The notes: generated by a model from the sequence alone, not told the origin. Shown: positions 3,455 through 35,322, numbered from the stretch's first letter. The stretch is DNA of 64,000 nt from Bdellovibrionota bacterium (GCA_040386775.1 JAZKEU010000017.1:85464-149463), one strand, 5' to 3'. A program made the numbers and translations.

Positions 3455-3481
3455 TAAGACCTTTGTCTGCTACTCCGATAG
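3455..3481 (+). promoter_or_regulatory. Candidate sigma-28 (FliA) type promoter for fliL
   Basis: TAAG-N15-TCCGATAG compared with the consensus TAAA-N15-GCCGATAA. The spacing is exactly 15 nt and the -10 element ends 47 nt upstream of the ATG at 3528. Confidence 0.4.
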
Positions 3482-3999: not shown

Positions 4000-5535
4000 T
4001 TAATTTCTAGGTCTGCAAATATGTATCGTGTTTGTAGCGCAATGTAGATTGCCTCCGCCCAAATGAGCGTAATCAAAGGTGTCTATAAATTCTGATTTCA
4101 AACCTCTTTTTTCGTATTCGACTTGGAGGTATTTTCTAAAGATATCGTTTGCAGGTTCCGGTGAAATTATGGTTTCAGCAACGGCAACGGAATTGGTGGG
4201 ACTGGGTAAGAATGATTTAGCCATGCCATGGGGTAGAATATATTTATTTTTTGATGTTTTGACGGGTTGGCCTCCGTAAAATATATTTGGAACATCTAAA
4301 GCATCTATTTTGCACGCAGGAAGTGCTTTTTGCAATTTGGCGAGAACATCCTTTTTTAGATTATCTATCTGTTCTTGAATAAGTTGGTTATAGATCTTCA
4401 GTTCTGAATCTTCAGTCAAAATTCTGTAAACATCTTTATTGCTCAGGTTTTCACAATTTTCTAGAGCCGGAGATTCTGCAAAAGCTTTATTTAATAGTAT
4501 GTCTCTTAAGTTAAGTAGTTGCGAAACTCCTTGCGATGAAGGATTCTTTTTTTGGTCATATTGGAGTTGGATTTTTTTGCGACACAAAAGATTGAGGCCT
4601 TGATGGTGGGTTACTCTTCTGATGAAAGTGTCATTAAGAGATTCCGTATTTTTTTTCTTAAAATTTATAAATGATCCTTCAGGATTTACCTTTAAAAGTT
4701 CGAGGGCCTTATTGGGGCTTGCAAAAGTTATTGAAAAATCGCAAGGTGCGGGATTATTTTTGTTTCTTATCACCTTGATGACTTCGTCGGTATGCCCAAC
4801 TTGCAACCAAGATGTAGGAACTTTTATTCTATTTTTTGGACTTTTATCACAAACTTCAGAAGCATAGTTTTCCCATTCTTGACCTTGAAAGTTATCACTC
4901 CCCAGAAGGCATATGCCAGTGGGAAGGGTGCCAATATTTCCCGCGGAATGACCAGAGCGAAGAGAGTCGGTAGCTGGAGAGGTGAGAGGTGGTCCTTCTA
5001 GAAATCCACATTTCTTGCTGGCTTCGGTGATTCCCCTAAAGCTGCCCTTATCAAATTTATTTTTTCGTACCGCAGAAGAGTAATTGGAAACTTCTCTCAA
5101 AGAAATTTGACCGCTTTGGGGGTTTACAAAGGCTTGCATATAGTCCTTTTGCCAAGTGTAACTTTTAACGGGCACTTGTTGTAGCAGCGCTTTGAATTTC
5201 TTTTTTTTGGCTTCGGAAATTTTTAAAGAATCAATGGAGTTGTTTATTCTTTCCATGGTTGCGTCAGATACGGGGAGCACAATCAAGGGAGGATTTTCTC
5301 CTGCGGCCAGCAAAGTTTTTTCAACAAGTTCACTTGCGAATTGGCTATCCCTTTCGTATGACCCACTATCAGATACGACCACCGCTGCCACGGGATATGT
5401 TTCGGGAACAAGTTGTCCTTTCTCAGGGCACAGGGGAAGATTGGATTTATTGCTAATCCATTCGGGGCAGGCTGCATAACTTTTAAGGGAGCTTATGAAT
5501 ATAAAATAAAATATGTATATGAGGCGCAGTCTCAT
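4000..5535 (-). CDS. Secreted protein-arginine deiminase (PADI-type, PF03068-like) homologue
   Basis: Signal peptide (FIFISSLKSYA). Three motifs align to the remembered PADI active-site segments: YTWQKDYMQ (PADI W-x-Q-D-E-M), VGHTDEVIKVI (PADI G-H-V-D-E-F) and C-terminal GGGNLHCATN (PADI G-E-V-H-C-G-T-N, catalytic Cys, codon at 4039-4041). Confidence 0.7.
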   Translation of the reverse strand: MRLRLIYIFYFIFISSLKSYAACPEWISNKSNLPLCPEKGQLVPETYPVAAVVVSDSGSYERDSQFASELVEKTLLAAGENPPLIVLPVSDATMERINNSIDSLKISEAKKKKFKALLQQVPVKSYTWQKDYMQAFVNPQSGQISLREVSNYSSAVRKNKFDKGSFRGITEASKKCGFLEGPPLTSPATDSLRSGHSAGNIGTLPTGICLLGSDNFQGQEWENYASEVCDKSPKNRIKVPTSWLQVGHTDEVIKVIRNKNNPAPCDFSITFASPNKALELLKVNPEGSFINFKKKNTESLNDTFIRRVTHHQGLNLLCRKKIQLQYDQKKNPSSQGVSQLLNLRDILLNKAFAESPALENCENLSNKDVYRILTEDSELKIYNQLIQEQIDNLKKDVLAKLQKALPACKIDALDVPNIFYGGQPVKTSKNKYILPHGMAKSFLPSPTNSVAVAETIISPEPANDIFRKYLQVEYEKRGLKSEFIDTFDYAHLGGGNLHCATNTIHICRPRN

Positions 5536-5620: not shown

Positions 5621-6424
5621 TTAATACTCAAAGAAGTCTATATTCAAACACCGAACTATCTCTGAATCCGAGTCCACCACCCATTTGTTGATCTTCTCAA
5701 TAAAGGCAGGCAATTCTTGTCGTATCTTTTGGGCGGCTTCTTTCGATAAAGACATGGGAGCAGTATAAAAGAGGTTCTTGTCCTCAGCAAAGATCATCTT
5801 ATTAAAACCCTGCATGCGCCAATTCTGGTGATGCTTAGTCACAAGAGGGGAATCGTTGCCTAGGTGAGTTCTCTTGGCTCCGACTAGGTATTTATTTTGT
5901 TTCAGCTCACACAATCCACTTTCCAGTAAAAAATCTAAAATCTTTTGAATTTGATTTCGAGGAATCTGAAGTCTTTGCGAAATGGAATCAATCGTAAGAC
6001 TTGTATCCGTCGCAATTAAATTTCTAATCCCGCTATAAATCCATGAAGAATAAAACGTGGCTTTATCATGATCTGTAAGTTCTTTGTCTTTCTCTAATCG
6101 TTCCTTAAGAACCGATGCTTGGATTTTTAATCTTTCAATCTTCTTTTTTAATTTTTGTTTTAAGCGGTGAGTGCCGGCTCTTTCAAACTCAACAAGTAGA
6201 AAAAAATAATCCGTTTCTTTTTCGTTGAGCCCAAGGTAGTCACAAAGATCGGAAGCGAGCTCTAAGTTGAAATTCTTTTCGCCATTTAGCACTTGGCTGA
6301 TCATGGTTGTGCTGATTCCCAAAGCCTCGGCAATACGACGGCTTTCGCCGTGACCTTTCTTCGGGAGAGCTTTTAACCAGGCCTTTAAATACGTTTTATA
6401 GCTAATAAACTCATAAATATTCAT
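5621..6424 (-). CDS. TIGR02147-family HTH protein (DUF4423-type), paralogue 1
   Basis: N-terminus YKTYLKAWLKALPKKGHGESRRIAEALGISTTMISQVLNGEKNF is the TIGR02147 signature (Xre-like HTH). 267 aa, the typical length. Confidence 0.8.
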   Translation of the reverse strand: MNIYEFISYKTYLKAWLKALPKKGHGESRRIAEALGISTTMISQVLNGEKNFNLELASDLCDYLGLNEKETDYFFLLVEFERAGTHRLKQKLKKKIERLKIQASVLKERLEKDKELTDHDKATFYSSWIYSGIRNLIATDTSLTIDSISQRLQIPRNQIQKILDFLLESGLCELKQNKYLVGAKRTHLGNDSPLVTKHHQNWRMQGFNKMIFAEDKNLFYTAPMSLSKEAAQKIRQELPAFIEKINKWVVDSDSEIVRCLNIDFFEY

Positions 6425-6462
6425 ATTTGCATCCTACTAATAATACTTCGGTATTTTAATAT

Positions 6463-6500
6463 ATTTACTTAATAGTAAATTATTTTATTAGTTATTTACT
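6463..6500. promoter_or_regulatory. Candidate operator: ATTTACT-taat-AGTAAAT palindrome plus a third ATTTACT half-site
   Basis: Perfect 7-bp inverted repeat at 6463-6480 and a direct copy of ATTTACT at 6494-6500. Both lie in the divergent promoter gap between the TIGR02147 gene (start 6424) and the 6597 gene. Confidence 0.35.
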
Positions 6501-6596
6501 AAACAAATCTATCGATAATTAATGCTCAAGGTCATAATGCATTCATCAATACGAACAATAACGAAACGTGAACAGAAAAAACCAATCAGAGGTATT

Positions 6597-7058
6597 ATGA
6601 AAATTTTAATTCTTGCATTTATATTGATGTTATCTCTTCAAGCCGTTGCGGCCCCTAGAGCTTACTACAGTAGTGATAAGAACAATTTTTTGATCAATGG
6701 AAGAGAAGCTTCAGGTCAAATTTGGGGATTCGGTTATCGAGTTCCTGGGGAATTTTCAAATAATATTAATGCTCATGAAATTTATAAAGACTATGTGATC
6801 GCAAAAAATTGGTCCGGCGTACTTTTGTGGGTTGGTTTCCCTTCATACATGATAGGGGCCTTTGATAATAATGATCGACTTTATATTGGTGGAGCAGCGG
6901 CATTTATTGTTGGAGCATTTTTGTCTCGTAGCGCTAACTTAAAGCTGCAAAAAGCCATTAATATTTACAATGGCGTGCCGTCAGATTTAGCAATTAAGAC
7001 TCGAGAGGAAAGATCTAATAATACTAATTATGCTCTCGGATGGAAATTTGAATTTTAG
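6597..7058 (+). CDS. Hypothetical secreted/membrane protein
   Basis: The M at 6597 is preceded by CAGAGG and followed by a signal peptide (MKILILAFILMLSLQAVAAP). Two internal hydrophobic segments. Ends GWKFEF. Confidence 0.5.
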   Translation: MKILILAFILMLSLQAVAAPRAYYSSDKNNFLINGREASGQIWGFGYRVPGEFSNNINAHEIYKDYVIAKNWSGVLLWVGFPSYMIGAFDNNDRLYIGGAAAFIVGAFLSRSANLKLQKAINIYNGVPSDLAIKTREERSNNTNYALGWKFEF

Positions 7059-7134
7059 AATTTTTTAACAACAATTTAGCAACTATTAAAAAAATAACTG
7101 GCACTGTATGTGCTCTATAAAAAGGAACAAACTT

Positions 7135-8400
7135 ATGAAACACTTATATTCATTCTTAATAGTACTTATCGTCGTATCTTTAATCGCTTGTGGCAAAAAT
7201 AGTCCTAAGAGTGGACTTGCGTCACAGAATGCGAGTGGTTCAAACCCAAGTGGAACTATTGACGGCGGTGGTGGTAATAGCTTTAAAGATAAAATGTTTG
7301 AAAGTTATATCGTAAAACCCAAAGATCTTTCGGGATATGAAATTCTTGAGCCATTACTGAAATCTTTAAGAAAAATCTTGAATGAAGACAGTCTAGATTT
7401 TACTGAGACAGGCTTTCCATATTATCAATTAGTAAATTCTGTTTTAGAAAAATCTTGGTATCTGGTTCCTACAGATCTTCAAACAATAGCAAACGAAAAA
7501 ATAGGTGTACCTTTATCTCAAGGAACGATCCAAGTGGCATTTCAAACCTTTGATGCTGTTTGGATTAACGAAAAGGCATTTGAAAAAATGGTCCCTGAAG
7601 AAAAAGCCAAACTTATTTTACATGAAATTGTTATGGGGCTAAAAATTTTGAAATTTGAATCTGATGCAAAATTCAATCAAATTTTTGGTGTGATTGGCTA
7701 TAAAGCTGAGGATGAGGCAATAGTTCACCCAGAAAGATTGACTTTAAAGATTACTGCAGAAGATGTATCTCAAGTTAGAACCGTTACAAGAAAATTTTGG
7801 GAGCTTTTAAATTTTGTAGATCAAAAATCTAATTTTAAAAATGGTTTTAACAAAAAAGATTTTGCCGCGATTATGGAAGAATTTAATTTCGAAAGAATCT
7901 TATATCGATCTAAGACCAATGGAAACTCTTATGGACTTTATCAGCTAGGAGCTGGCCATATGGTCAAGAACATTGCATCAATTTTTGAAGGTATAAATAA
8001 TAGACATCAATTCTTAGTTGAAGACTTTTCTAAAGCCAGCTGCGAATTATCTGTTAAAAAAATTACCGATTCTCAAGCGGAAGTTGAATTAAAAATTGAA
8101 GGTAAGAAGTACTCTAAATTTAAAGTGAATCTTCCTAAAAAAATCTATTATACTTTTGGACAAAGAATCATAAACGATTCGCAAAATCCTAAAATTGATC
8201 TTATCGGACCAGGAAGTTATCCAGATTCAAGAAAGATACTTACTCTTTATTTTGAATCAAATGAACTTGAAGGTCTTGAAGTCCAAGAGCTAGCAATTGA
8301 AAATTTTAAAAACTCAGATGGTCATCCTGTAGCTTCAGGCACAGCTTTTGGAGAGCAGATTCTATGCAACAAACTGGGAACCCAAAGCACCGACGATTAG
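7135..8400 (+). CDS. Lipoprotein of unknown function (polyGly ... HE motif family)
   Basis: The ATG at 7135 follows AAAGGA. Lipobox VSLIAC, then DGGGGN after the signal, and EEKAKLILHEIVMGL about 140 aa later. The same layout occurs in the 13380-14075 protein. Confidence 0.6.
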   Translation: MKHLYSFLIVLIVVSLIACGKNSPKSGLASQNASGSNPSGTIDGGGGNSFKDKMFESYIVKPKDLSGYEILEPLLKSLRKILNEDSLDFTETGFPYYQLVNSVLEKSWYLVPTDLQTIANEKIGVPLSQGTIQVAFQTFDAVWINEKAFEKMVPEEKAKLILHEIVMGLKILKFESDAKFNQIFGVIGYKAEDEAIVHPERLTLKITAEDVSQVRTVTRKFWELLNFVDQKSNFKNGFNKKDFAAIMEEFNFERILYRSKTNGNSYGLYQLGAGHMVKNIASIFEGINNRHQFLVEDFSKASCELSVKKITDSQAEVELKIEGKKYSKFKVNLPKKIYYTFGQRIINDSQNPKIDLIGPGSYPDSRKILTLYFESNELEGLEVQELAIENFKNSDGHPVASGTAFGEQILCNKLGTQSTDD

Positions 8401-8420
8401 TTTTAGAATTTTAAAAACCA

Positions 8421-8490
8421 TTTTAGGCAAAAAAAAGCCAACCAGGAGAGGATCTTGGTCGGCTTTTCTAAATCGTGGAGCGATTTAAAG
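8421..8490 (+). repeat. Direct repeat copy 1 (about 70 bp) containing a terminator-like hairpin
   Basis: TTTTAGGCAAAAAAAAGCCAACCAGGAGAGGATCTTGGTCGGCTTTTCTAAATCGTGGAGCGATTTAAAG. The stem is GCCAACCAGGA/TCTTGGTCGGC followed by TTTT. It recurs at 9085-9155 with 3 substitutions and 1 extra A. Confidence 0.85.
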
Positions 8491-8622
8491 GCATTAAATC
8501 ATCTTTAATGTTAACTTTCCCTTCTGTATAAATTGAAACTACAGCTCCGCCAGTTAAGATTACATCAATATTATCTTTTTTGAGCTGGGATGCCACATAG
8601 AAAGCGAAATCTTTTATAGACA
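8467..8622 (-). pseudogene. Truncated remnant of a nucleotidyltransferase-like partner gene (51 codons)
   Basis: Hand translation gives MSIKDFAFYVASQLKKDNIDVILTGGAVVSIYTEGKVNIKDDLMPLNRSTI*. It resembles the N-terminus of nucleotidyltransferase-fold proteins that usually follow this kind of wHTH gene. The reading frame runs into repeat copy 1 and stops there. It is below the 60-aa cut-off of the ORF track. Confidence 0.35.
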
Positions 8623-8640
8623 TTTTTTTGTTAATAGAAT

Positions 8641-8970
8641 TCACAGCTCTTTACCTGTTCTTCTTGGGCGTCGACGTTGTCTGTAATACTTTTCTATTTC
8701 TTTAGAGCTAAGTAAGCCCAGAGCTTTTTCAAGTAGAGTTAATAATTCTTTTTTAAAAGAATACCTAGGATTAATTTGAAACATTTTGCTGTTACCGGCA
8801 AAGCGAGCAACTAGTATCCCTCCTTTTTCCAGTCTCAGTATTTGTTTTCTGACTTGAGACTTTGAAATACCAAATGTGTCAGCTATACCTGAAATATGAC
8901 CTTCGCCATAATTAGCTATATATAAAAGAACTTTTTCGGCTGTTGAATTTCCCACTAAGCTTTCAATCAT
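8641..8970 (-). CDS. Winged-helix (ArsR/MarR-like) DNA-binding protein, probable antitoxin-like regulator
   Basis: 109 aa. AEKVLLYIANYGEGHISGIADTFGISKSQVRKQILRLEKGGILV is a wHTH, followed by a basic tail RQRRRPRRTGKEL. Confidence 0.75.
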   Translation of the reverse strand: MIESLVGNSTAEKVLLYIANYGEGHISGIADTFGISKSQVRKQILRLEKGGILVARFAGNSKMFQINPRYSFKKELLTLLEKALGLLSSKEIEKYYRQRRRPRRTGKEL

Positions 8971-8990
8971 ATAAACCTTCAGTATCTAAA

Positions 8991-9018
8991 GTAGAACGAT
9001 CGTACTACTAAATAGTAC
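8991..9018. promoter_or_regulatory. Overlapping imperfect palindromes upstream of the wHTH gene (candidate operator)
   Basis: GTAGAACGATCGTACTAC (18-bp palindrome with 2 mismatches) overlaps GTACTA-ctaaa-TAGTAC. Both lie 20-50 bp upstream of the start at 8970. Confidence 0.3.
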
Positions 9019-9084
9019 ATTATAAAATCGGTAGTTTAAATGAGTTTCTTAAGCAGTTAGAGAATCATGGAATAGTAAGATCGA

Positions 9085-9155
9085 TTTTAGGCAAAAAAAA
9101 AGCCAACCAGGAGGGGATCTCGGTCGGCTTTTCTAAATCGTGGGGCGATTTAAAG
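9085..9155 (+). repeat. Direct repeat copy 2 (about 71 bp)
   Basis: TTTTAGGCAAAAAAAAAGCCAACCAGGAGGGGATCTCGGTCGGCTTTTCTAAATCGTGGGGCGATTTAAAG, near-identical to 8421-8490. Confidence 0.85.
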
Positions 9156-9485
9156 AGGGGTAACTGATTTCTATATATAGCAACCTTCGTGCCATCTACA
9201 ACAATTCTGCAACTATTTTTAAAATATCATGTAAAATCAAATATTTATCCTAACGATTTCCTAACTATTTAGAGATATGCTTTAATTAGCTTTTTGGTTC
9301 CAATTTGGGTATGAGTTTTTGGTTTTACATAACATTGTGAGCTACAGAAAAACAAAAACTTTAGTGATTCTAGTAAATTCGAGGCTTAACATATCCTAAG
9401 TGCCATCGTGAGACCTAAAACCAAACTAGACCCACCGTGAACCCGATGAATAACGGTAAAAGGTGCACCTAAAAGGATATCATCT

Positions 9486-10829
9486 ATGAGAATTCTGCTT
9501 ACTGTATTATTCCTATTCTCCTTCCCAGCTCTTGCTGCCGAAGGACTCTCAAGTTTAAAATTTGAGGTCGAAAAATACCAACTGCCAAATGGCTTAACGG
9601 TGCTTCTTCACGAAGATCACTCTGTTCCTCTTGTGAGTTATCATACTTGGTTCCGTGTGGGCTCTAAGGATGAAGAATTAGGATACACCGGAATTGCGCA
9701 TCTCTTTGAGCACATGATGTTTAAAGGAACGCAAAAATATTCCAACAAAGATTACGAAAGAACACTGAGAGAAAATGGGGCATCCAATAACGCCTTCACA
9801 TCTCGTGATTACACGGGTTACTACGTGAATGGACCAAGTTCAAAATTAGAAACCATTATGGATTTAGAGTCCGATAGAATTGAACATCTCAATCTAACTC
9901 AAGCCAATTTGGATTCGGAAAGAGAAGTTGTAAAAGAAGAGAGACGTTTCCGTGTAGAAAATCGAGTGATGGGTTTGCTTATGGAAAAAATCAACGATGT
10001 GGTTTACAAAGTTCATTCCTATAGATGGCCCGTGATTGGCTACATGAAGGATCTTGGAAATATCACAGTAGAAAAAGCTCAAAGCTTTTATAAAACTTTT
10101 TATTCTCCTAATAATGCAGTCTTGGTGATCGCTGGAGATTTCAATTCTGGAAAAGTTAAAAAATTAATCGAAAAGTATTACGGACATATGAAGTCTCAAG
10201 ATATCAAGAGACCAAAGGTGAATCCAGAGCCTCCGCAAAAATCGATTAGAAATGAAGTGTTCTATAAAGACATTCAAAATGATTATTTAAGTATTTCATT
10301 CCCAGTGCCAAGTGCATTGTCGTTGGAACTGGCTCCGCTTGAATTGGCTTCGCATATTTTGGGTGAAGGGAACTCAAGCCGTCTCCACTCAAAACTTGTC
10401 TATAAGCAGGAGATTGCGACATCTGTGATGACATACATCATGAGCAATCAAGAATCCTCGGTGTTTCAAATTATCGTTGCCCTAAAGCCTCAGAAATCTA
10501 AAGCCCAAGCAGATAAAATTCTAGAGCAAGCTAAAAAAGAAATTTACTCTGAACTTTTCAACTTAAGAAATAAATCTGTTTCATTAGACGAAGTTTCTAA
10601 AGCGCAAAACCAAGCGGCGAAGTCTTTCATTGATGCTCTTAAAACTATCGATGGAAGAGCTTATTCTTTGGCCTCCAATGAAATCGTTGTGGGATCTTAT
10701 GAGAAACTCTTTACTGATCTTGAAAATTACATGCGCGTCAAGCCTGCGGAAATCAAAGGTGTATCAGAAAAATATCTAAAAAACACTCAAGCTAACGTTG
10801 TTGTTGCAAGACCGGAGAGATTCAAATGA
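9486..10829 (+). CDS. M16 (pitrilysin) family zinc peptidase, active subunit
   Basis: Signal peptide. Inverted zincin motif HLFEHMMFKGT (HxxEH). 447 aa. Confidence 0.9.
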   Translation: MRILLTVLFLFSFPALAAEGLSSLKFEVEKYQLPNGLTVLLHEDHSVPLVSYHTWFRVGSKDEELGYTGIAHLFEHMMFKGTQKYSNKDYERTLRENGASNNAFTSRDYTGYYVNGPSSKLETIMDLESDRIEHLNLTQANLDSEREVVKEERRFRVENRVMGLLMEKINDVVYKVHSYRWPVIGYMKDLGNITVEKAQSFYKTFYSPNNAVLVIAGDFNSGKVKKLIEKYYGHMKSQDIKRPKVNPEPPQKSIRNEVFYKDIQNDYLSISFPVPSALSLELAPLELASHILGEGNSSRLHSKLVYKQEIATSVMTYIMSNQESSVFQIIVALKPQKSKAQADKILEQAKKEIYSELFNLRNKSVSLDEVSKAQNQAAKSFIDALKTIDGRAYSLASNEIVVGSYEKLFTDLENYMRVKPAEIKGVSEKYLKNTQANVVVARPERFK

Positions 10830-12232
10830 TCACTAAAATGAGAAAAATATTAAATATTTTATTTGTATTAACATTGATTGTAGCAGCAGTGGGTTGTGCG
10901 ACTTTGGGTTTAAAGTCTAATGGAAGTCTTAAGCCTTATAAAACTTCAAAGTTAGATAATGGTTTAAACATTCTCTATGTGAATGATGAAAAGCTACCAT
11001 ATATTTCGACATCGCTTGTGATCATGAGTGGTTTTGCAGCGGACCCAAAAGATCAAACGGGATTAACGGCAGCAGCACTTGAACTTTTGAATAAAGGAAC
11101 GCTCACGAAATCCGCAGAACAAATCGCAGCAGAGATTGAACAGATGGGCGCAGAATACGATGCTAACATTACAGCAGACTACTCTATGATCTCTCTGGAT
11201 GGATTGGCTTGGCAGGAAGATAAGATTCTATCTATTTTATCTGAGCTTATCCTAAAACCAAAATTTGATGATCAAGAGATTAATCGCTACAAATCAAGAA
11301 CGCTTGCGGTAGTTCAACAACGCTTGGATCAAGTGTCTTATTTGGCCTCAGAAATTTTTGAGAGTTTCTATTACAAGAATCATCCCTATGGCCATAGAGA
11401 TATCGGCACCATGGCCGATATCAAAAAATTAAATAAAACTTCAATTCAAAATCAATTTGGAATGATTGCTAGACCGAACAACACTTGGCTTGTGGTTGTT
11501 GGAAAATATTCTGGTGACATAGAAGATAGAATTGAAAAATATTTTGGTGGTTGGAAGAATCAAGCTGTTGCGCAAACACAGTATCCTGCCATTGAGGCTT
11601 TTCAAGGCAGAAAGATTCTCCTTGTAAATAAGCCTGATGCAGCTCAGGCAGAAATTCGTATTGGACACAAAGGAACTGACAGAAGAGATCCTGCGCACGT
11701 TGCAACGACAATTGCGAACTCCATATTGGGTCAAGGTTTCACCAGCCGTCTTGTGGATCGCATCCGTGATCAATTGGGCCTCACTTACAGCATCAGCAGC
11801 TCTACTGATTTTAGACTCCAAGGGAGTGTATTTGAAATCCGCACCTTCACTCAAAGCCCAAAAGTAGGACAAACTATTTCTGAGGTCTTGAAAGTGTATG
11901 ATGATTTCCATAAAAATGGAATTACAGACACGGAGTTGAAAACTGCGCAAAAATACATGATCGGAGTATTCCCAAGTCTCGTGGAAACAGCCGAGAAGAC
12001 CGCATATAATTTGATTATCTTAAGAATCTTTGGCGTAGCAGATGACTATCTTTTAGATTACCAAAAGAACATCGCAAAAGCGACATTGGCAGAAGTGAAT
12101 AGCTCGATCCAAAAAAATTACGACCCTAGCAATTTAAAAGTAGTGATCGTAGCTCCTAAAGATAAAGTTCTCTCGCAATTGAAGAGCCTAGGAGAAGTAG
12201 AAGTCGTCGAAGCCTCAACATTCTTAAAATAA
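10826..12232 (+). CDS. M16 family peptidase-like lipoprotein (non-catalytic partner)
   Basis: 4-nt overlap with the upstream M16 gene. Lipobox AAVGCA. M16 N- and C-domain length and pattern, but no HxxEH motif. Confidence 0.85.
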   Translation: MITKMRKILNILFVLTLIVAAVGCATLGLKSNGSLKPYKTSKLDNGLNILYVNDEKLPYISTSLVIMSGFAADPKDQTGLTAAALELLNKGTLTKSAEQIAAEIEQMGAEYDANITADYSMISLDGLAWQEDKILSILSELILKPKFDDQEINRYKSRTLAVVQQRLDQVSYLASEIFESFYYKNHPYGHRDIGTMADIKKLNKTSIQNQFGMIARPNNTWLVVVGKYSGDIEDRIEKYFGGWKNQAVAQTQYPAIEAFQGRKILLVNKPDAAQAEIRIGHKGTDRRDPAHVATTIANSILGQGFTSRLVDRIRDQLGLTYSISSSTDFRLQGSVFEIRTFTQSPKVGQTISEVLKVYDDFHKNGITDTELKTAQKYMIGVFPSLVETAEKTAYNLIILRIFGVADDYLLDYQKNIAKATLAEVNSSIQKNYDPSNLKVVIVAPKDKVLSQLKSLGEVEVVEASTFLK

Positions 12233-12237
12233 AAAAA

Positions 12238-12262
12238 GGGACGGAAAATTAAATTCCGTCCC
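12238..12262. terminator. Bidirectional intrinsic terminator between convergent genes
   Basis: GGGACGGAA-aattaaa-TTCCGTCCC, flanked by an A7 run on the left and TCGATTTT on the right. Confidence 0.6.
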
Positions 12263-12297
12263 TCGATTTTAAATGCCTTATTTGTCAGGATATCTGT

Positions 12298-12582
12298 CTA
12301 GTTGGAAGAGCAACTGTCTTCGTGGTACTGTATACAATCTCCATTGTCTCTACGGACTCTACAGTTTTCTACGCAAATAGGATTTATTCCGCAATAATCA
12401 GAATGATATTGTATGCAACTTCCATCATCTCTACGAACTCGGCACCAGGGCACGCATGTTGTAGGCGTATTCTCTTGGTCAGATGTACAGGAATGTCTTT
12501 CGCCATGGCTATAGTCGTAATAATCATGAGCTTGAATATTTAATGTAGAAAAAATGATCATAAAAAATAAAGTTATCTTCAT
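12298..12582 (-). CDS. Small secreted cysteine-rich protein with an internal tandem duplication
   Basis: The ATG at 12582 follows AAGGA with 7-nt spacing. Signal peptide MKITLFFMIIFSTLNIQA. The mature part contains two copies of C-x3-C-RVRRD(D/N)G-x-C-IQYH-x-D-x-C. The track ORF (to 12648) adds an unlikely N-terminal extension. Confidence 0.6.
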   Translation of the reverse strand: MKITLFFMIIFSTLNIQAHDYYDYSHGERHSCTSDQENTPTTCVPWCRVRRDDGSCIQYHSDYCGINPICVENCRVRRDNGDCIQYHEDSCSSN

Positions 12583-12638
12583 TTTGTTTTCCTTTTTGTT
12601 ATCGCAAATGTTAATTTCAAGATTTATCAGATCAAATC

Positions 12639-13217
12639 TTAGTCCCAAAATATTTCTGACTTCAATTTCTTAGTAGCCGGCAGGCAATACATAGTAGCCT
12701 CATATCCACCTTCAAAAAAGACATCATCATTAGATCTTTTGCTGTCGATACTCCAATGAAGCAGAAGGTTATCTTTTCCTGCTTTTCTGATTCGCAAACT
12801 AAACTTATCGGCTTTCTTAATATATGCTTCTGGCATCTTAGGGAAAGTATCAGATCCAAGAATCTCTCCATCTAGATCAGAAACTCTTTCAATCGGAACA
12901 ACTGTAGGCCAGCCGTAACTTCTGTCAGCACCATCACCCAGGTCCTTAGACGGTTTCGTGTACAGGGTATATAAGTCGTTGAAGCTCTCAAACCGTACTA
13001 TAAAATTTCTGATAAACATAATTTGATCTTCATTGACTGAGCAATACCAAAGCTTGCCAGCTTTAAGATCCTTAGTGTTATTGACGGCTATCGAGGTTTT
13101 AAAAATATAGGGGATAAGTTCACTTGGCGGAAGAGATTGCGTAGGCTCGGCCAAAGCGCTTAACGAAACTGTAAATAACCCTAAGAACATCGCTATAGAA
13201 CGACATATTTTCAACAT
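12639..13217 (-). CDS. Hypothetical secreted protein
   Basis: 192-aa ORF with a signal peptide (IAMFLGLFTVSLSALAEP). No family recognised. Confidence 0.55.
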   Translation of the reverse strand: MLKICRSIAMFLGLFTVSLSALAEPTQSLPPSELIPYIFKTSIAVNNTKDLKAGKLWYCSVNEDQIMFIRNFIVRFESFNDLYTLYTKPSKDLGDGADRSYGWPTVVPIERVSDLDGEILGSDTFPKMPEAYIKKADKFSLRIRKAGKDNLLLHWSIDSKRSNDDVFFEGGYEATMYCLPATKKLKSEIFWD

Positions 13218-13320
13218 AAAATCTCCTTAACTGAAAAGCTTTGTTCAATGACAAAGATGGTTTGTAGAATGAGCATATTAACAAATTACGTTGAAAAAAT
13301 AAAATTTTTGACAGAGATAG

Positions 13321-13373
13321 TGTGGCAAGATCTTTGCCACGAGAGGATTTTATATGTGGCGAAGTATGCCACA
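13321..13373. promoter_or_regulatory. Two TGTGGC/GCCAC(A) inverted-repeat sites (candidate operator or sigma-54-like -24/-12 element)
   Basis: TGTGGC-aagatcttt-GCCACg at 13321-13341 (N9 spacer) and TGTGGC-gaagtat-GCCACA at 13355-13373. They lie about 105-155 bp upstream of the start at 13217. Read on the minus strand, the first site gives TGGCAA-N5-TTGC with GG/GC spacing as in sigma-54 promoters. Confidence 0.4.
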
Positions 13374-13379
13374 GGAGTA

Positions 13380-14075
13380 TTATTTAAAGTTGATAGCGCG
13401 TTTTGTTTCTTGGCAAAGCTCACGAATATCTTTGTAACAAGTTTGAATGCAAGAATCCGCGTGTTTATTTATTTGCGAGATAACGCTATTTATTTCTGGA
13501 TCTTCGAATTTTTGTTGAGCAACTAATTCATGAAACTGACTCATGCTTTGAGAGAGGAAATTTTGATTTTCCTGGCATATTGCATATTCAGCACTCTCGC
13601 TCCCTTGAGCTATACCTAGAATACGCTTTGCTAGGCCTCTAGAATAATAAAAATTTGTATCGTCATAAGTGGGAGACCACCACAGTAATTCGTGAATGGC
13701 GTATTTTATTTTTCCTTCTTGATCGAGCGATGTCCATCCTCTTGCTTTGTTAGGATCGCAGTAAAGTTCTAGTCTATTTTTCTTTGGATGACTGCAGGCA
13801 ATTGGATTGTCAGTGTTTGGACACTTCTCGATTGGTTTTTCTTTTACGACGATCACAAAGTCCGGATTCCTTGACGGCTCTGCTACATTGAAAGCCTCTA
13901 GTAAGATTCTTAGATCTGTCGGTGTGGTGTTGTGCGAAGGTGCAGAAGATATCCAGGCCAAGGTATTCATAAAATCTTCTTTGCATGGATGGCCACCGCC
14001 GCCTCCCTCGTTAGCGCGATTTGCAAATGCAAATGATGTAGATAAACAAATAGCGATAAATATTATTTTTTTCAT
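13380..14075 (-). CDS. Secreted protein of unknown function (polyGly ... HE motif family)
   Basis: Signal peptide, then NEGGGGGH, and later QEGKIKYAIHELLWW. This parallels the 7135-8400 lipoprotein. 4-nt overlap with the upstream TIGR02147 gene. Confidence 0.65.
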   Translation of the reverse strand: MKKIIFIAICLSTSFAFANRANEGGGGGHPCKEDFMNTLAWISSAPSHNTTPTDLRILLEAFNVAEPSRNPDFVIVVKEKPIEKCPNTDNPIACSHPKKNRLELYCDPNKARGWTSLDQEGKIKYAIHELLWWSPTYDDTNFYYSRGLAKRILGIAQGSESAEYAICQENQNFLSQSMSQFHELVAQQKFEDPEINSVISQINKHADSCIQTCYKDIRELCQETKRAINFK

Positions 14076-14836
14076 GCAGGTTCTCTTTTTTCTAAAGACG
14101 TTACTGGATAAAGTTGTACAGCCAGATGGAAAACAGCATCGCCGTCACCATCTTCCATAAAAGCCGCTAATTCACGGCGGAATTTCTTAATTACATCTTT
14201 TACTTCAATTAATTTCTTGGAGTTCCCAGCAATAGTCATAGAAGTAATATCTTTTAAATCTTGTGGGCAGCCATCAATTGCGTGTAAAGATTTTTCTACA
14301 ATTTGTCTTTGGTATTCTTTATGAGCAGCGGAAGTGTCGCCTTCTTTATAATTTGAAAAACTCATTTGAGTTTTTACCAATTTGCTATCTTGTTCTGCTA
14401 AAAGCTCCAAGCGTTTTAAGCGATCTATAGCTATTGAAACTTCGGTCACGGAAATTCCTAACTGTTGTGCAATCCAAGACGGGTTGCTATCAAAGTTTTT
14501 TAATAATGTTAAATCCAAAATGGCGAAGTGATACCAATCAGATATTGCTGCAAATAAATCTTTGCTCAAGAGAGAGTATTTTTTCCCCATACTCTGTTGC
14601 AAATTTTCCGAATCAAAAACAAATGCCATTCCGATTTTACTCTCGATTTTTTCTAACATTGATTGTGATACTTTTCGCTTACCAGACAACATTTGTGAAA
14701 CTGTAGATGGGTCAAGTGCCAAACTTTTTGCGAAAGCTCTTAAAGAATAGCGAGAGTTCACTCTGCAGCGACGTGTGAATTCTTCTTGTAACCAAATTTT
14801 AAAATAACTAAGTTCGATAGGGCTTAAGTTTTTCAT
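14072..14836 (-). CDS. TIGR02147-family HTH protein (DUF4423-type), paralogue 2
   Basis: SYFKIWLQEEFTRRCRVNSRYSLRAFAKSLALDPSTVSQMLSGKRKVS matches the family signature. 254 aa. Confidence 0.8.
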   Translation of the reverse strand: MKNLSPIELSYFKIWLQEEFTRRCRVNSRYSLRAFAKSLALDPSTVSQMLSGKRKVSQSMLEKIESKIGMAFVFDSENLQQSMGKKYSLLSKDLFAAISDWYHFAILDLTLLKNFDSNPSWIAQQLGISVTEVSIAIDRLKRLELLAEQDSKLVKTQMSFSNYKEGDTSAAHKEYQRQIVEKSLHAIDGCPQDLKDITSMTIAGNSKKLIEVKDVIKKFRRELAAFMEDGDGDAVFHLAVQLYPVTSLEKREPA

Positions 14837-14883
14837 AGTGCTGCGCAGTATGAATGATTCGGCCTTTTATTTAAAGAAAAAAA

Positions 14884-14916
14884 GCCACAATGTGTGGCAT
14901 GAGACATGCCACACAT
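14884..14916. promoter_or_regulatory. GCCACA-atg-TGTGGC-atgagacat-GCCACA composite palindrome (candidate operator)
   Basis: ATGTGTGGCAT-gagac-ATGCCACACAT is a perfect 11-bp inverted repeat. It contains TGTGGC-N9-GCCACA, the same half-sites and spacing as at 13321-13341. It lies 50-80 bp upstream of the TIGR02147 start at 14836. Confidence 0.45.
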
Positions 14917-15024
14917 TTAAAATGCTGATTTTATTTAAATATTTAAAAATTAGATTCAGGTATTTTTTCCATGAACAGGATCAATACAGTCAAGATCAAC
15001 TCACTAAAGACTTACAAGGAGTTC

Positions 15025-34600: not shown

Positions 34601-35322
34601 ACAGTTCCTGTTCCAGTGCAAGATTTTTCTTGATCGGTTCCTCGTTGGATGGTTACACGCACTTTAAATTCTGCTCGTGTAGTGTCTTGTGAGCTAGGGA
34701 GGTCGGCCATGGCAAGTCTTCGAGCTGTACAAGGGATACCATCAAAATCTACAGCAAGATCTATTTCTACGTTTCTATCTGTGATTGTAAATCCTGGTCT
34801 GGGAGTGGAATCGTCGTAGAATCTTTCACCGCAGTTGGGGCCCATGTCCAGGCCATTGCAGCAGAAGTTTCCGCTGGCCGCTAGGGCAATGAGTCTATTC
34901 GTAGAATTTTTAATGTTGAGATAGTTAAAATATTTCCATGGAGGAGGAATTTGAGTTGCTGTTGGTGGTAAACTCAATGTACCTGTTCCGGTGTATATAG
35001 GAATGGGCGTAGAGGTGAATCTAAATCTATCAATGCCATCGTCAGTTTGATCAAGGCCTTGTGGAAAATCTACGCCGCCAGCAGGACCATATGAAGAAAT
35101 AAACAGAGAGGTTTCATCTTTTTTGATATATTCCACAAGAGAGTTTGCAATATTTTGGCAGCTCCCTGCAATCTCGATTCTTTTTGAAAGTCTACTCTGA
35201 TCGCTAACAACATAGGCAACAGTCATTGCTATTGTTATGACCAATGCGGCGGCGATAAGTGCCCCCACTAAACCAACCCCACGTTGATTTAAAAATAATG
35301 TAATTAATTTATTTTTCTTCAT
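31681..35322 (-). CDS. Giant cysteine-rich surface protein with a PilX_N-like N-terminal anchor
   Basis: 1213-aa ORF. The N-terminus NQRGVGLVGALIAAALVITIAMTVAYVV resembles the PilX N-terminal / pseudopilin-like anchor (no Glu at +5). About 82 Cys by hand count. The rest is rich in G, T, S, P and A. Three C-terminal tandem repeats. Confidence 0.75.
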   Translation of the reverse strand: MKKNKLITLFLNQRGVGLVGALIAAALVITIAMTVAYVVSDQSRLSKRIEIAGSCQNIANSLVEYIKKDETSLFISSYGPAGGVDFPQGLDQTDDGIDRFRFTSTPIPIYTGTGTLSLPPTATQIPPPWKYFNYLNIKNSTNRLIALAASGNFCCNGLDMGPNCGERFYDDSTPRPGFTITDRNVEIDLAVDFDGIPCTARRLAMADLPSSQDTTRAEFKVRVTIQRGTDQEKSCTGTGTVQRTMDTTPALTLIQYQNLCGPGIISPAICGAPAPVQIAIRTFKSNAGTACQTNCQQQINSTTCSDATGAGPDLFDSFNNAACAACLESEPGTAFLCRIGEKTWFDDPTNANVWEPCENATVKDSDGTTAGNVSISYQPLVSGNGNTQRTANAILTLSGLRSMKGYVVDVRTVDTSGNVGPSFCNPANGSPSCSSASPAHFSIIDSVPVMGPISDNTNHVANAGNAVGSFAPSLTGTSAPKYTDAMVAFAGGKFQCQGGAPVFIGSVVYTPPLPPGPSSISHNCSGLLTSPSGATTIIPSAAPGVIPGCNCVGVDCTARLPAVASEGGYTLSLSAENNCGTLQAIPVQSWCLDSTATVGATYSPAENFSTPIPSFASVITAATAPAKACGVSTLCPNLDATFTPTLGTVCGTGGWNSMTNSGCTQDPSGNFCAIVVDPCGRYQQNTTPPMRYSTPLTSVPHTFPPAANHCFRYGGTQRGGNVCEAGSYCSRTGKCFNTCAKEGTACTTAVDCEDPSYGVTSAEAGGPTCTGNICTCPTNNSSPAANDCSPVYCPALNSCTSGIGSPQGPTSCTPCSNWNVGAWGACVGAVRTRTVNCPTSCCIGPMPASTTPCTDCQTPWGTEIPNGTSVTAYQTSSVACASTCISENRTCTNGVLSGSFTNQNCSVGACTAGCWSCFGSNAECSPGPSSGCGYNGYTTAHGVPNLIGTACTNVGDQQYFQRLLPIGVVCTQGNIECITCGGTNGACGSDHGTSGPTAPTSLCNAGTASAVSGSGPWTWSCAGTGSGTSADCSKSYSIPVINGVCGTADGTAVASAPTTNLCSSGTASAVTGAGPWSWSCEGSGGGGDAGCSASVGAMVNGACGTANGTTVASAPTTNLCSSGTASAVTGSGPWNWNCNGSGGGSNAGCSASPPVVMGVWCFAGLEDYGCGIPGPILTGTPCTPVGDTASQPVAPCPSDKSRTYECRVGPTCF
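31867..32382 (-). repeat. Three tandem 54-60-aa four-cysteine repeats at the C-terminus of the giant protein
   Basis: The repeat is NG-x-CG-x-A-x-G ... P-T-x-x-LC-x-x-GTASAV-x-G-x-GPW-x-W-x-C-x-G-x-G ... C-S. Units 2 and 3 share the identical stretch VASAPTTNLCSSGTASAVTG. Confidence 0.8.

What the first reader, a model, noticed from the sequence alone, without database searches (positions are those of the whole stretch)
5621..14836. TIGR02147-family regulators paired twice with secreted 'polyGly ... HE' proteins
Both TIGR02147 paralogues in the window sit next to a member of what looks like one uncharacterised exported protein family.
- **Paralogue 1 (5621-6424, -):** divergent from an operon ending in the lipoprotein 7135-8400. 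That protein has a lipobox, then DGGGGN, then ...EEKAKLILHEIVMGL.
- **Paralogue 2 (14072-14836, -):** translationally coupled (4-nt overlap) to 13380-14075. That protein has a signal peptide, then NEGGGGGH, then ...QEGKIKYAIHELLWW.

The shared layout is a signal, a Gly4-5 run within about 10-30 residues of the mature N-terminus, and a charged K-x-K stretch followed by hydrophobic-HE-hydrophobic. This suggests homology and a conserved His-Glu functional site that is not the HExxH of zincins.

Other exported proteins complete each neighbourhood: the PADI-like enzyme at 4000-5535, the 12639-13217 protein, and the Cys-rich mini-protein at 12298-12582. A dedicated HTH regulator plus exported effector cassette, present in paralogous copies, would be a candidate undescribed system.
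Basis: inference. Interest (0 to 1): 0.6.

Follow-up and report, generated by a model that had tools for sequence, protein, structure and literature searches.

The report
Regulator plus variable exported-protein cassettes
The window holds two copies of a two-gene unit that is widespread in predatory Bdellovibrio-like bacteria: a DNA-binding regulator (DUF4423/TIGR02147) next to a fast-evolving exported protein with a conserved glycine loop and His-Glu pair. The pairing is real and I found no description of it in the papers and family libraries searched, but its function is still unknown.

Summary
Both regulators are TIGR02147/DUF4423 proteins, and both neighbours are exported proteins with a Gly run at the start of the mature domain and an HE motif about 105-120 residues later.

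A census of 80 loci, fetched through the regulator alone, shows the pairing is close to a rule in Bdellovibrionota:
- 80 of 82 assessable DUF4423 genes have a same-strand downstream ORF, and 78 of those look exported.
- The Gly-run plus HE layout occurs in 36/81 downstream ORFs against 16/485 other ORFs (p = 3e-22).

The lipoprotein (famA) belongs to a family of about 700 clusters with no Pfam or NCBIfam model, in which H and E are invariant. The 231-aa protein (famB) belongs to a second group. The two groups are linked only by profile-profile comparison (93.6 %, E 2e-7, 31 columns; decoys at most 1.6 %). Direct A-versus-B similarity is not significant.

New findings:
- Against a near-identical MAG, the regulators are 94-99 % conserved but both exported genes are replaced by alleles about 50 % identical.
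- Conserved three-half-site palindromes lie upstream of the regulators.

The other exported neighbours (PAD-like enzyme, 12639-13217, Cys-rich peptide) are not part of the unit. Biochemical function is unknown; a zincin assignment failed.

The parts
5621..6424 (-). DUF4423/TIGR02147 regulator 1 (267 aa). It has an XRE-type HTH_3 at residues 31-67 and a winged-HTH-like (TrmB) segment at 141-179 inside DUF4423.
   Evidence: It is 87 % identical to the L002 orthologue.
6425..6521 (.). Conserved divergent control region. It carries the inverted repeat ATTTACT-N4-AGTAAAT (6463-6480) and a third half-site, ATTTACTA (6494-6501).
   Evidence: About 88 % identical to L002 over about 116 nt and about 94 % to L091. 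Repeats. Its role as an operator is inferred.
6522..7058 (+). Small signal/TM-bearing ORF (178 aa) between regulator 1 and famA. It is a variable filler, not a conserved part of the unit.
   Evidence: Relatives have other small genes here or none. No family hits.
7099..7114 (+). TGGCAC-N5-GTGCT element 21 nt upstream of the famA start. It reads either as a sigma-54-type -24/-12 promoter or as a degenerate copy of the TGGCA palindrome.
   Evidence: The same element is present in L002 and a better match in L086 (3 of 5 independently transcribed members; 0.006 expected per upstream region). Not present in L026 or L085.
7135..8400 (+). famA: type A Gly-loop/HE lipoprotein (421 aa). Lipobox C19, a roughly 20-residue tether, DGGGGN at 43-48, an alpha/beta N-domain with H163/E164 on helix 154-174, and a C-terminal beta-barrel at 293-412.
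13380..14075 (-). famB: type B Gly-loop/HE secreted protein (231 aa). Signal peptide, NEGGGGGHPCKEDF, IHELLWWS, and a Cys-containing helical C-terminus. Between near-identical genomes this ORF is a sharply bounded island of low similarity.
14072..14836 (-). DUF4423/TIGR02147 regulator 2 (254 aa). Its stop overlaps the famB start by 4 nt.
   Evidence: It is 98.8 % identical to L005, 83 % to L001, 79 % to L003 and 49 % to L004.
14884..14917 (-). Three-half-site element. Read on the minus strand it is GTGTGGCATG-TCT-CATGCCACAC-ATT-GTGGC, ending about 50 nt upstream of the regulator 2 start. It is a candidate operator and may double as the terminator of the upstream gene.
   Evidence: The consensus TGGCA-N6/7-TGCCAC-N4-5-GTGGC is found at the same position in 11 loci.

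Best explanation
The window carries two paralogous copies of a two-gene module that is common in Bdellovibrionota.

Gene 1 is a cytoplasmic DUF4423/TIGR02147 transcription factor with an XRE-type HTH and a winged-HTH-like segment.

Gene 2 is a Sec-exported protein, either a lipoprotein or a soluble signal-peptide protein.
- Its roughly 200-residue N-terminal domain starts with an acidic Gly-rich loop ([DE]-x-G-[GN]-G-G).
- After two or three helices and a three-stranded sheet, it carries an invariant His-Glu on a long helix.
- This conserved core is followed by interchangeable C-terminal parts: a calycin-like barrel in famA, a helical Cys-rich tail in famB, and a Kelch propeller in L073.

Shown here:
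- the pairing;
- tight spacing with the regulator, up to a 4-nt overlap;
- the conservation of the Gly loop and HE;
- the absence of these proteins from the Pfam, NCBIfam and PADLOC libraries;
- the variable presence of each cassette at one chromosomal site;
- allele replacement of the exported gene between near-identical genomes while the regulator stays 94-99 % identical.

Inferred:
- The regulator binds the conserved three-half-site palindrome upstream of its own gene and sets when the cassette is expressed, probably at a defined stage of the predatory cycle.
- The exported protein acts in the envelope or on prey. Its conserved Gly-loop/HE core would be a catalytic or ligand site, and its variable surface and C-terminal domain would set target specificity under diversifying selection.

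famA and famB are most likely very distant homologues (types A and B of one superfamily).
For: Regulator identity.

Pairing conserved in orthologues and distant relatives.

Census through the regulator only:
- 85 DUF4423 genes in 80 loci, 82 with room downstream.
- 80 have a same-strand downstream ORF of at least 100 aa.
- 38 of these have an exact 4-nt overlap and 73 lie within 60 nt.
- 78 of the 80 look like they carry a signal peptide.
- The motif layout is present in 36/81 downstream ORFs against 16/485 others, Fisher p = 3e-22. Most of the 'control' hits are second or third copies in the same operons.

Size and conservation of the exported families:
- Type A has 696 clusters at 50 % identity with E <= 1e-3.
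- 20 census downstream genes join type A by BLAST and 25 by iterated HMM.
- Type B has 22 downstream genes including famB.
- H and E are invariant in 171 type A sequences. A Gly of the run plus H, E and one Ser are the only columns conserved at 85 % or more in type B.

Link between the two types:
- famB against the other type B groups: 96.7 %, E 3e-10, 122 columns that include both motifs.
- Type B against type A: 93.6 %, E 2e-7, with decoys at most 1.6 %.

Structure: the famA model has pLDDT 78.8 and places HE in the middle of helix 154-174, after strands 107-111, 135-137 and 141-145.

Allele replacement:
- Cassette 2: flanks are 93-100 % identical at the DNA level and the regulator 98.8 % at the protein level, while famB is 51.6 %. 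DNA identity falls to 39-72 % across the famB ORF, already easing to 80-89 % in the last ~200 nt of the regulator gene.
- Cassette 1: 94 %, then 71 %, then no similarity, then 95 %.

Cis elements.

Expression: in B. bacteriovorus HD100 the DUF4423 protein Bd3700 pulses about 1000-fold at 3-4 h of predation, and its neighbour Bd3701 peaks at the same time (PMC12546842 supplement).
Against: - No experiment links any DUF4423 protein to DNA or to its neighbour.
- famA appears to have its own promoter-like element resembling a sigma-54 site. DUF4423 is not a sigma-54 activator, so direct control of famA is less certain than control of famB.
- The type A to type B link rests on 31 columns. HMMER never bridges the two groups.
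- The famB structure model is unreliable in the relevant region (pLDDT 51).
- No fold or family match gives a biochemical function.
- Hypervariability is not universal. Two B. bacteriovorus genomes show only a mild dip: the effector is 73-84 % identical against 80-90 % in the flanks.
- Nine or more downstream genes are short (113-160 aa), have a Gly run but no HE, and are not linked to either type.
- The motif regex was written after seeing the sequences.
- The census covers only Bdellovibrionota relatives of regulator 2. Fibrobacter, where TIGR02147 was defined, was not examined.
Confidence: 0.6

Rival explanations
1. The exported proteins are genuine zincin-type metallopeptidases. HE would be the first half of a zinc site, with the remaining ligands supplied elsewhere, for example by the acidic residue of the Gly loop or by conserved E56/D210. 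On this reading they are secreted proteases used in predation.
For: - The HE sits on a long helix directly after a small beta-sheet, as in zincins.
- 3 of 114 members give weak PF18894 'phage metallopeptidase' hits, best E about 1e-3.
- The BFVD fold search gives weak 'metallopeptidase domain' hits at E about 0.05.
- Some DUF4423-downstream proteins with the same N-terminal Gly motif have a full HExxH: L017, L038, L049, L063, L068, L070 and L073.
Against: - None of the 171 type A sequences has His at +4; the residue is M in 141 and Y in 18. famB has W at that position.
- No peptidase model in Pfam or NCBIfam matches.
- No PDB fold hit covers the N-domain, and there is no PDB sequence hit.
- The HExxH-bearing proteins were not shown to be homologous to type A or B.
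Confidence: 0.2
2. The exported proteins are non-enzymatic surface or periplasmic binding proteins for prey recognition, adhesion or kin discrimination. On this reading the Gly loop and HE are structural, and the variable regions are the functional part. famA would then resemble hypervariable surface lipoproteins built from a handle domain plus a beta-barrel.
For: - Allele replacement is confined to the exported gene between near-identical genomes.
- The C-terminal domains are interchangeable and of ligand-binding types: a calycin-like barrel and a Kelch propeller.
- 8 of 10 sampled 90 %-identity clusters are singletons.
Against: - Absolute invariance of a His-Glu pair and a Gly loop across hundreds of otherwise 20-25 % identical sequences is more typical of a catalytic or cofactor site than of a scaffold.
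- Surface exposure has not been shown.
Confidence: 0.3
3. The module is a partner-switch or addiction-like pair rather than regulator plus cargo. The 4-nt overlap would provide stoichiometric co-production, because the regulator senses or is titrated by its partner's unexported precursor, giving secretion-coupled feedback, as in toxin-antitoxin autoregulation.
For: - A 4-nt overlap is found in 38 of 80 pairs.
- The regulator's HTH resembles HigA-type antitoxin HTHs, although below the model cut-off (26 bits against 47.7).
Against: - 78 of 80 partners carry signal peptides, so they leave the cytoplasm.
- The lipoprotein members sit on the opposite strand with their own upstream regions.
- There are no PADLOC or TA family hits for the partners.
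Confidence: 0.08
4. The resemblance between famA and famB is coincidental. On this reading two unrelated exported proteins merely share a low-complexity Gly run and a common dipeptide, and each sits next to a DUF4423 gene for unrelated reasons.
For: - BLASTP gives E = 0.75.
- HMMER profiles never connect them.
- hhalign of famB alone against type A gives only 0.7-49 %.
Against: - Both lie in the same position relative to the same regulator family.
- The Gly run and HE are the top conserved columns in both extended families.
- The motif spacing is comparable.
- The profile link of 93.6 % compares with decoys of at most 1.6 %.
- The layout is 13-fold more frequent next to DUF4423 genes (44 % against 3.3 %; odds ratio 23).
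Confidence: 0.1

Closest known systems
TIGR02147 ('Fsuc_second') / Pfam PF14394 DUF4423 family
   Same: Both window regulators score above the curated cut-offs. They have the family's architecture: an N-terminal XRE-type HTH followed by the DUF4423 region.
   Different: The family is annotated only as a paralogous family or domain of unknown function. The literature search found one paper, which merely lists a DUF4423 protein in a proteome. The obligate pairing with an exported Gly-loop/HE protein, the operator-like palindromes and the Bdellovibrionota expansion were not found described.
Zincin metallopeptidases (HExxH helix after an edge strand)
   Same: His-Glu sits on a long helix immediately after a small sheet. 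There are weak sequence and fold hints to phage metallopeptidase-like proteins.
   Different: The second His is absent in every type A sequence and in famB. No peptidase model and no PDB fold match. Membership was tested and not met.
XRE-family regulator with an adjacent exported product (for example RRNPP-type quorum-sensing pairs) and autoregulated HTH-first operons such as type II toxin-antitoxin loci
   Same: A small XRE-type HTH gene is immediately followed by, and often overlaps, a gene whose product carries a signal peptide. Palindromic sites lie upstream of the HTH gene.
   Different: The regulator has no TPR peptide-binding domain. The partner is a folded protein of 110-730 aa, not a short pro-peptide. 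The partner is exported, so it cannot be a cytoplasmic toxin. The comparison rests on my own knowledge of those systems, apart from the domain scans.
Hypervariable, recombination-shuffled exported loci (polymorphic toxins or effectors, variable surface lipoproteins built from a handle plus a beta-barrel)
   Same: A conserved N-terminal module carries interchangeable C-terminal parts. Discrete allele classes about 50 % apart sit between conserved flanks. Effector and flank relatedness are incongruent.
   Different: There is no immunity gene, no known toxin domain and no known secretion-system marker. The variable gene is wired to its own transcription factor. This analogy is inferred, not tested.

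Membership tests
TIGR02147 / DUF4423 (both regulators) | Score above NCBIfam's curated cut-off (50 bits) and Pfam's PF14394 gathering score (30 bits) | tested here: met
   89.4 and 105 bits on TIGR02147; 76.7 and 131.7 bits on PF14394.
TIGR02147 / DUF4423 (both regulators) | N-terminal helix-turn-helix DNA-binding domain | tested here: met
   PF01381 HTH_3 scores 26.5 and 27.8 bits against a cut-off of 23. Actual DNA binding cannot be tested with these tools.
Zincin metallopeptidases (famA, famB) | HExxH (or HExxxH) zinc-binding motif with a second His | tested here: not met
   famA has HEIVM and famB has HELLW. In 171 type A sequences the +4 residue is M (141) or Y (18), never H.
Zincin metallopeptidases (famA, famB) | Match to a peptidase family model or to a solved zincin fold | tested here: inconclusive
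Type A Gly-loop/HE superfamily (unnamed; famA) | N-terminal domain with G40, G46, W108, H163 and E164 invariant, following a signal or lipoprotein signal peptide | tested here: met
   The profile search gives 696 clusters at E <= 1e-3. Invariant columns are from a 114-sequence alignment. famA seeded the family, so its own membership is by construction.
Type B Gly-loop/HE group (unnamed; famB) | Significant match to a profile built without famB from other DUF4423-downstream proteins, covering both motifs | tested here: met
   hhalign of famB against S2 gives 96.7 %, E 3e-10, over 122 columns. hmmsearch with the S2 profile hits famB at E 2.1e-5.
One superfamily uniting type A and type B | Significant profile-profile similarity beyond decoys, and the same fold | tested here: inconclusive
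   93.6 %, E 2e-7, but over only 31 columns; decoys reach at most 1.6 %. The fold comparison was not possible because the famB model has pLDDT 51.
Protein-arginine deiminase, PF03068 (4000-5535) | Score above the gathering threshold | tested here: met
   69.3 bits against a cut-off of 25, covering profile positions 175-385 of 395. The gene is not conserved next to the module.
Type II toxin-antitoxin (HigA-like antitoxin plus toxin) | Antitoxin model above its cut-off, and a cytoplasmic toxin partner | tested here: not met
   HigA scores 26.1 and 17.9 bits against a cut-off of 47.7. The partners carry signal peptides. There are no PADLOC hits for the partners.
Sigma-54-dependent promoter (upstream of famA) | TGGCAC-N5-TTGCW with GG-N10-GC spacing, conserved among relatives | tested here: inconclusive
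   The element is present with correct spacing in the window, L002 and L086, but absent in L026 and L085. The implied leader would be only about 10 nt. No enhancer-binding protein is encoded in the cassette.

The most novel reading that the evidence does not exclude
Bdellovibrionota carry many paralogous 'timer plus variable effector' cassettes. Each DUF4423 factor would switch on its own exported Gly-loop/HE protein at a set stage of predation. The exported proteins would form a new enzyme or ligand-binding fold, with an N-terminal Gly loop closing over a His-Glu site. Their alleles would be swapped by recombination between otherwise identical strains because they determine prey range, resistance to prey counter-measures, or discrimination between predator strains.
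Probability: 0.25. Interest if true: 0.8.

Novelty: new variant of a known kind. Interest (0 to 1): 0.62.

Why it matters
Predatory bacteria are being studied as living antibiotics, yet most of their exported proteins and stage-specific regulators have no known function. This result matters for four reasons.
- It ties an uncharacterised regulator family (DUF4423/TIGR02147) to one specific class of targets.
- It defines an exported superfamily of roughly 700 clusters that has no Pfam or NCBIfam model, and names its likely functional residues.
- It proposes operator sequences that can be tested directly.
- It shows that the exported partner can be a strain-level replacement hot spot. If these proteins act on prey or on other predators, they are candidates for prey-range or compatibility determinants.

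Tried and rejected
- Direct comparison of the two window proteins gave nothing: BLASTP E 0.75 and hhalign of the shallow alignments 0.27 %.
- A deep type A HMM searched against famB gave no hit.
- Iterated HMM searches started from type A and from famB each converged without reaching the other group.
- The AlphaFold model of famB from 6 sequences was unusable in the N-domain (pLDDT 51).
- PDB Foldseek matched only the C-terminal barrel, weakly, to avidin, lipocalin and FABP at E about 0.03.
- A PDB sequence profile search found nothing relevant.
- Pfam scans of the HExxH-bearing downstream proteins found no peptidase family.
- PADLOC returned only generic HTH hits, so there is no case for a defence system.
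- Rfam and tRNA scans of the window were empty.
- Reading the 14889-14917 palindrome as a simple terminator was rejected as the general explanation. In seven other loci the arms are only 5 bp long with non-complementary spacers, there is no U-tract, and the position relative to the regulator start is fixed. In the window itself it may still terminate the upstream gene.
- Reading that palindrome as a sigma-54 promoter fits the 17-nt versions but not the 16-nt versions.
- Universal hypervariability was rejected, because the two B. bacteriovorus genomes show only a mild dip.
- Literature searches for TIGR02147, DUF4423 and PF14394 returned one proteomics paper only.

Full report
**1. What is in the window**

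The source is a Bdellovibrionota MAG. NCBI names the two exported proteins V4596_10590 and V4596_10625, both 'hypothetical'. All ORFs in the finding exist as described.

The two regulators:
- 5621-6424(-) and 14072-14836(-) both pass the curated thresholds of TIGR02147 (89 and 105 bits; cut-off 50) and PF14394 DUF4423 (77 and 132 bits; cut-off 30).
- Both start with an XRE-type HTH_3 domain.
- They are distant paralogues, 21-22 % identical over the two aligned segments.

The two exported neighbours:
- The protein at 7135-8400(+), 'famA', has the lipobox LIAC, DGGGGN at residues 43-48 and LILHEIVMG (H163/E164).
- The protein at 13380-14075(-), 'famB', has a signal peptide, NEGGGGGH and AIHELLWW (H128/E129). 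Its start overlaps the regulator's stop by 4 nt.
- 4000-5535(-) is PAD-like (PF03068, 69 bits).

**2. Are famA and famB related?**

Directly, no.
- BLASTP gives E = 0.75, and the alignment is the GGGG run.
- Each protein has only five or six close homologues in the word-indexed search. Within each set, the Gly run and HE are invariant.
- hhalign of those shallow alignments is not significant (0.27 %), although its best local match already pairs the two HE segments.

An exhaustive profile search with famA changed the picture.
- It returned 696 clusters (50 % identity level) at E <= 1e-3, of which 596 were at E <= 1e-10. All matched over the N-terminal ~240 positions.
- Every one of the top 150 has HE, and 131 of them a recognisable Gly run, typically 100-125 residues upstream of it.
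- In a 114-sequence alignment the invariant columns are G40, G46, W108, H163 and E164.
- No Pfam model covers this family.

**3.

I fetched 80 genome loci using only an alignment of DUF4423 proteins. All come from Bdellovibrionota-like genomes or MAGs.

| Measure | Result |
|---|---|
| DUF4423 genes in the 80 loci | 85 |
| With room downstream | 82 |
| With a same-strand downstream ORF of at least 100 aa | 80 |
| Of those, exact 4-nt overlap | 38 |
| Of those, within 60 nt | 73 |
| Of those, signal-peptide-like N-terminus | 78 |

- Read side by side, the downstream proteins show the same layout. After the signal peptide comes x(1-6)-[DE]-x-G-[GN]-G-G, often followed by a short strand with a Cys. 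About 90-160 residues later comes hydrophobic-hydrophobic-H-E-hydrophobic.
- A regex for this layout hits 36/81 downstream ORFs against 16/485 other non-nested ORFs (odds ratio 23, p = 3e-22). Most of the 16 'controls' are second or third copies in the same operons, or divergent partners of a second DUF4423 gene. The regex was written after seeing the data.
- The family-based counts do not depend on the regex. Twenty downstream genes join the famA superfamily by BLAST and 25 by iterated HMM.
- In the reverse direction, five of six sampled superfamily representatives (P0013, P0022, P0068, P0150, P0045) have a DUF4423 gene next door. The sixth, P0100, lies on a 2.6-kb contig that is too short to judge.
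- Lipoprotein-type members sit on the opposite strand, divergent or convergent. Signal-peptide-type members sit directly downstream.

**4. Two types and their link**

The neighbours fall into two groups that HMMER treats as closed.
- Type A contains famA and 34 ORFs in the loci.
- Type B contains famB and 23 ORFs in all, 22 of them directly downstream.

The evidence connecting them:
- famB matches a profile built from the other type B clusters at 96.7 %, E 3e-10, over 122 columns that include both the Gly motif and HE. HMMER with the same profile gives E 2e-5.
- The extended type B profile matches the extended type A profile at 93.6 %, E 2e-7, but over only 31 columns: the last strand, a turn and the HE helix.
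- Decoys (reversed profiles and the DUF4423 profile) give at most 1.6 % and E >= 0.03.
- A greedy alignment also places the two Gly motifs in register.
- The only columns conserved at 85 % or more are G27, H128, E129 and S145 in type B. In type A they are G40, G46, G47, W108, L115, Q133, A135, H163, E164 and R215.

I take types A and B to be probable distant homologues (about 0.7). Nine or more short downstream proteins (113-160 aa) have a Gly run but no HE and remain unlinked.

**5. Structure and biochemical clues**

- The famA model (114-sequence alignment, pLDDT 78.8, pTM 0.74) has a disordered lipoprotein tether. After the Gly motif it has an alpha/beta domain: helices 68-87 and 97-104, strands 107-111, 135-137 and 141-145, and helix 154-174 carrying H163/E164. 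A C-terminal beta-barrel spans residues 293-412.
- PDB Foldseek matches only the barrel, weakly, to avidin, lipocalin and FABP (E about 0.03). Nothing matches the N-domain.
- BFVD gives 'metallopeptidase domain' proteins at E about 0.05. Three of 114 relatives give weak PF18894 hits.
- Against a true zincin: the residue four positions after His is M (141) or Y (18) in 171 type A sequences, never His. famB has W there.
- Some DUF4423-downstream proteins do have HExxH, but I could not show that they belong to type A or B.
- C-terminal parts differ between members: a barrel in famA, a helical Cys-containing tail in famB and a Kelch propeller in L073.
- The famB model is unreliable (pLDDT 51). Its predicted order of elements matches famA (Gly run, helices, three strands, HE helix), but this carries little weight.
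- The biochemical function therefore remains open. An invariant His-Glu plus a Gly loop across 20-25 % identical sequences suggests a catalytic or cofactor site more than a scaffold. That is inference.

**6. Cassettes come and go, and the exported gene is replaced**

- The same chromosomal region (YkuD - FliL ... two M16 peptidases ... S8 peptidase) holds only cassette 1 in two relatives. It holds only cassette 2 in another. The window has both.
- The closest relative is MAG OTE_70b (loci L005, L090, L091). Its flanking genes are 96-100 % identical to the window at the protein level.

| Cassette | Segment | Identity to OTE_70b |
|---|---|---|
| 2 | Regulator 2 (protein) | 98.8 % |
| 2 | famB (protein) | 51.6 % |
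| 2 | Flanks (DNA) | 93-100 % |
| 2 | famB ORF, 13380-14075 (DNA) | 39-72 % beyond a better conserved 5' end (about 83 %), recovering just past the stop |
| 1 | 5809-6614 (DNA) | 94 % |
| 1 | famA promoter and N-domain, 7066-7806 (DNA) | 71 % |
| 1 | famA C-terminal half (DNA) | no detectable similarity |
| 1 | From 9079 (DNA) | 95 % |

- Relatedness is incongruent. L005 and L001 share 78 % in famB but 83.5 % in the regulator. The window and L005 share 52 % in famB but 98.8 % in the regulator.
- This looks like discrete allele classes exchanged by recombination, not gradual drift.
- It is not universal. Two B. bacteriovorus genomes show only a mild dip.
- Both genomes in the main comparison are MAGs, so strain mixing during assembly is a caveat. 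The sharp gene-bounded edges argue for real allelic variation.

**7. Cis elements**

Upstream of regulator 2:
- The window has GTGTGGCATG-TCT-CATGCCACAC-ATT-GTGGC at 14884-14917.
- The core TGGCA-N6/7-TGCCAC-N4-5-GTGGC recurs at the same distance (about 60-85 nt from the annotated start) in 11 loci.
- Those loci have regulators 42-99 % identical, and their upstream genes and downstream effectors differ.
- About 1.4 chance matches were expected across the 91 upstream regions (my own estimate), and 16 were found.
- In most loci the arms are 5 bp long with non-complementary spacers and no U-tract. A protein-binding site therefore fits better than a terminator. In the window the 13-bp stem could also terminate the upstream gene.

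Upstream of regulator 1:
- The 97-nt divergent region is 88-94 % conserved with relatives.
- It holds ATTTACT-N4-AGTAAAT plus a third ATTTACT.
- Both regulators therefore have a 'forward, reverse, forward' half-site layout with different sequences.

Immediately upstream of famA:
- TGGCAC-N5-GTGCT lies at 7099-7114. It is also present in L002 and, in better form, in L086 (3 of 5 independently transcribed members; 0.006 expected per region).
- It may be a sigma-54 promoter or a degenerate TGGCA site. I leave this open.

**8. Outside evidence**

- The only paper that mentions DUF4423 is a B. bacteriovorus HD100 time-course proteome.
- In that study, Bd3700 (DUF4423) rises about 1000-fold (log10 intensity 3.4 to 6.6) at 3-4 h, and the neighbouring Bd3701 peaks at the same time. 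A second DUF4423 protein, Bd3758, falls in a different temporal cluster (PMC12546842).
- I could not verify that Bd3701 is a family member.

**9. Verdict**

- The unit is 'DUF4423 regulator plus exported Gly-loop/HE protein'. The PAD-like enzyme, 12639-13217 and the Cys-rich peptide are lineage-specific neighbours, not components of the unit.
- Homology of the two exported proteins is probable but remote.
- The mechanism is inferred, not shown: an autoregulated, stage-specific operon driving a variable exported enzyme or binding protein.
- I rate it a new variant of a known kind, namely a regulator-plus-cargo operon built from an uncharacterised regulator family and an unmodelled exported superfamily. 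Interest is 0.62.

Noticed in passing
window 8406-8490 and 9070-9155: An ~85-nt direct repeat (62-nt core 95 % identical, containing a terminator-like hairpin) flanks a 580-nt segment that carries a small winged-HTH gene (8641-8970, -). In the near-identical MAG OTE_70b (L090), copies of the same repeat flank a different 4.4-kb cargo: an NTP_transf_2/NTase_sub_bind pair, RtcB and a Peptidase_M48+PT-TG protein. This looks like an insertion or exchange hot spot right after famA.
   Followed up: partly
window 7099-7114; L002 about 3457-3472; L086 about 1822-1837: A sigma-54-like -24/-12 element (TGGCAC-N5-GTGCT; TGGCAT-N5-CTTGCT in L086) lies upstream of the independently transcribed lipoprotein-type members. 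One related locus (L088) also encodes a sigma-54 activator two-component pair nearby.
   Followed up: partly
window 14837-14860, and the same position in L001, L003, L010-L013, L016: A TATAnT-like box sits only about 12-18 nt upstream of the DUF4423 start codons, and no Shine-Dalgarno sequence is visible. This suggests leaderless or very short-leader regulator mRNAs. Read by eye only.
   Followed up: no
window 4000-5535 (-): A signal-peptide-bearing PAD-like (protein-arginine deiminase, PF03068) gene lies between FliL and regulator 1. It is absent at this position in the syntenic relatives (P0009 contig, L002), so it looks like a lineage-specific insertion.
   Followed up: partly
window 12298-12582 (-): The Cys-rich mini-protein contains an internal duplication, C-x-x-C-R-V-R-R-D-[DN]-G-[SD]-C-I-Q-Y-H-[SE]-D-x-C, present twice. 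It is 94 % conserved in the closest MAG only.
   Followed up: no
window 31681-35322 (-): A 1213-aa ORF rich in Cys, Gly, Thr, Ser and Pro has a pilin-like hydrophobic N-terminus and repeated 'NLCSSGTASAVTG.GPW.W.C.G' units. It causes a local GC peak (0.50 against about 0.39). No rRNA, other Rfam family or tRNA was found anywhere in the window.
   Followed up: no
L010, L030, L038, L041, L049, L061, L079 (census loci): Several DUF4423 operons carry two or three Gly-loop/HE genes in tandem downstream of a single regulator.
   Followed up: partly
L019, L020, L023, L035, L042, L044, L056, L062, L074, L077, L084: A subset of DUF4423 genes is followed by short exported proteins (113-160 aa). Most have an N-terminal Gly motif (for example KEGGGD or RETGGG), none has an HE, and none has a detectable link to type A or B. 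They form two small clusters of their own.
   Followed up: partly
L052 against L054: Only the cassette (regulator plus effector, 58-74 % DNA identity) aligns between these two loci, and the flanks are unrelated. The cassette therefore occurs in different genomic contexts, as expected for paralogous or mobile units.
   Followed up: no
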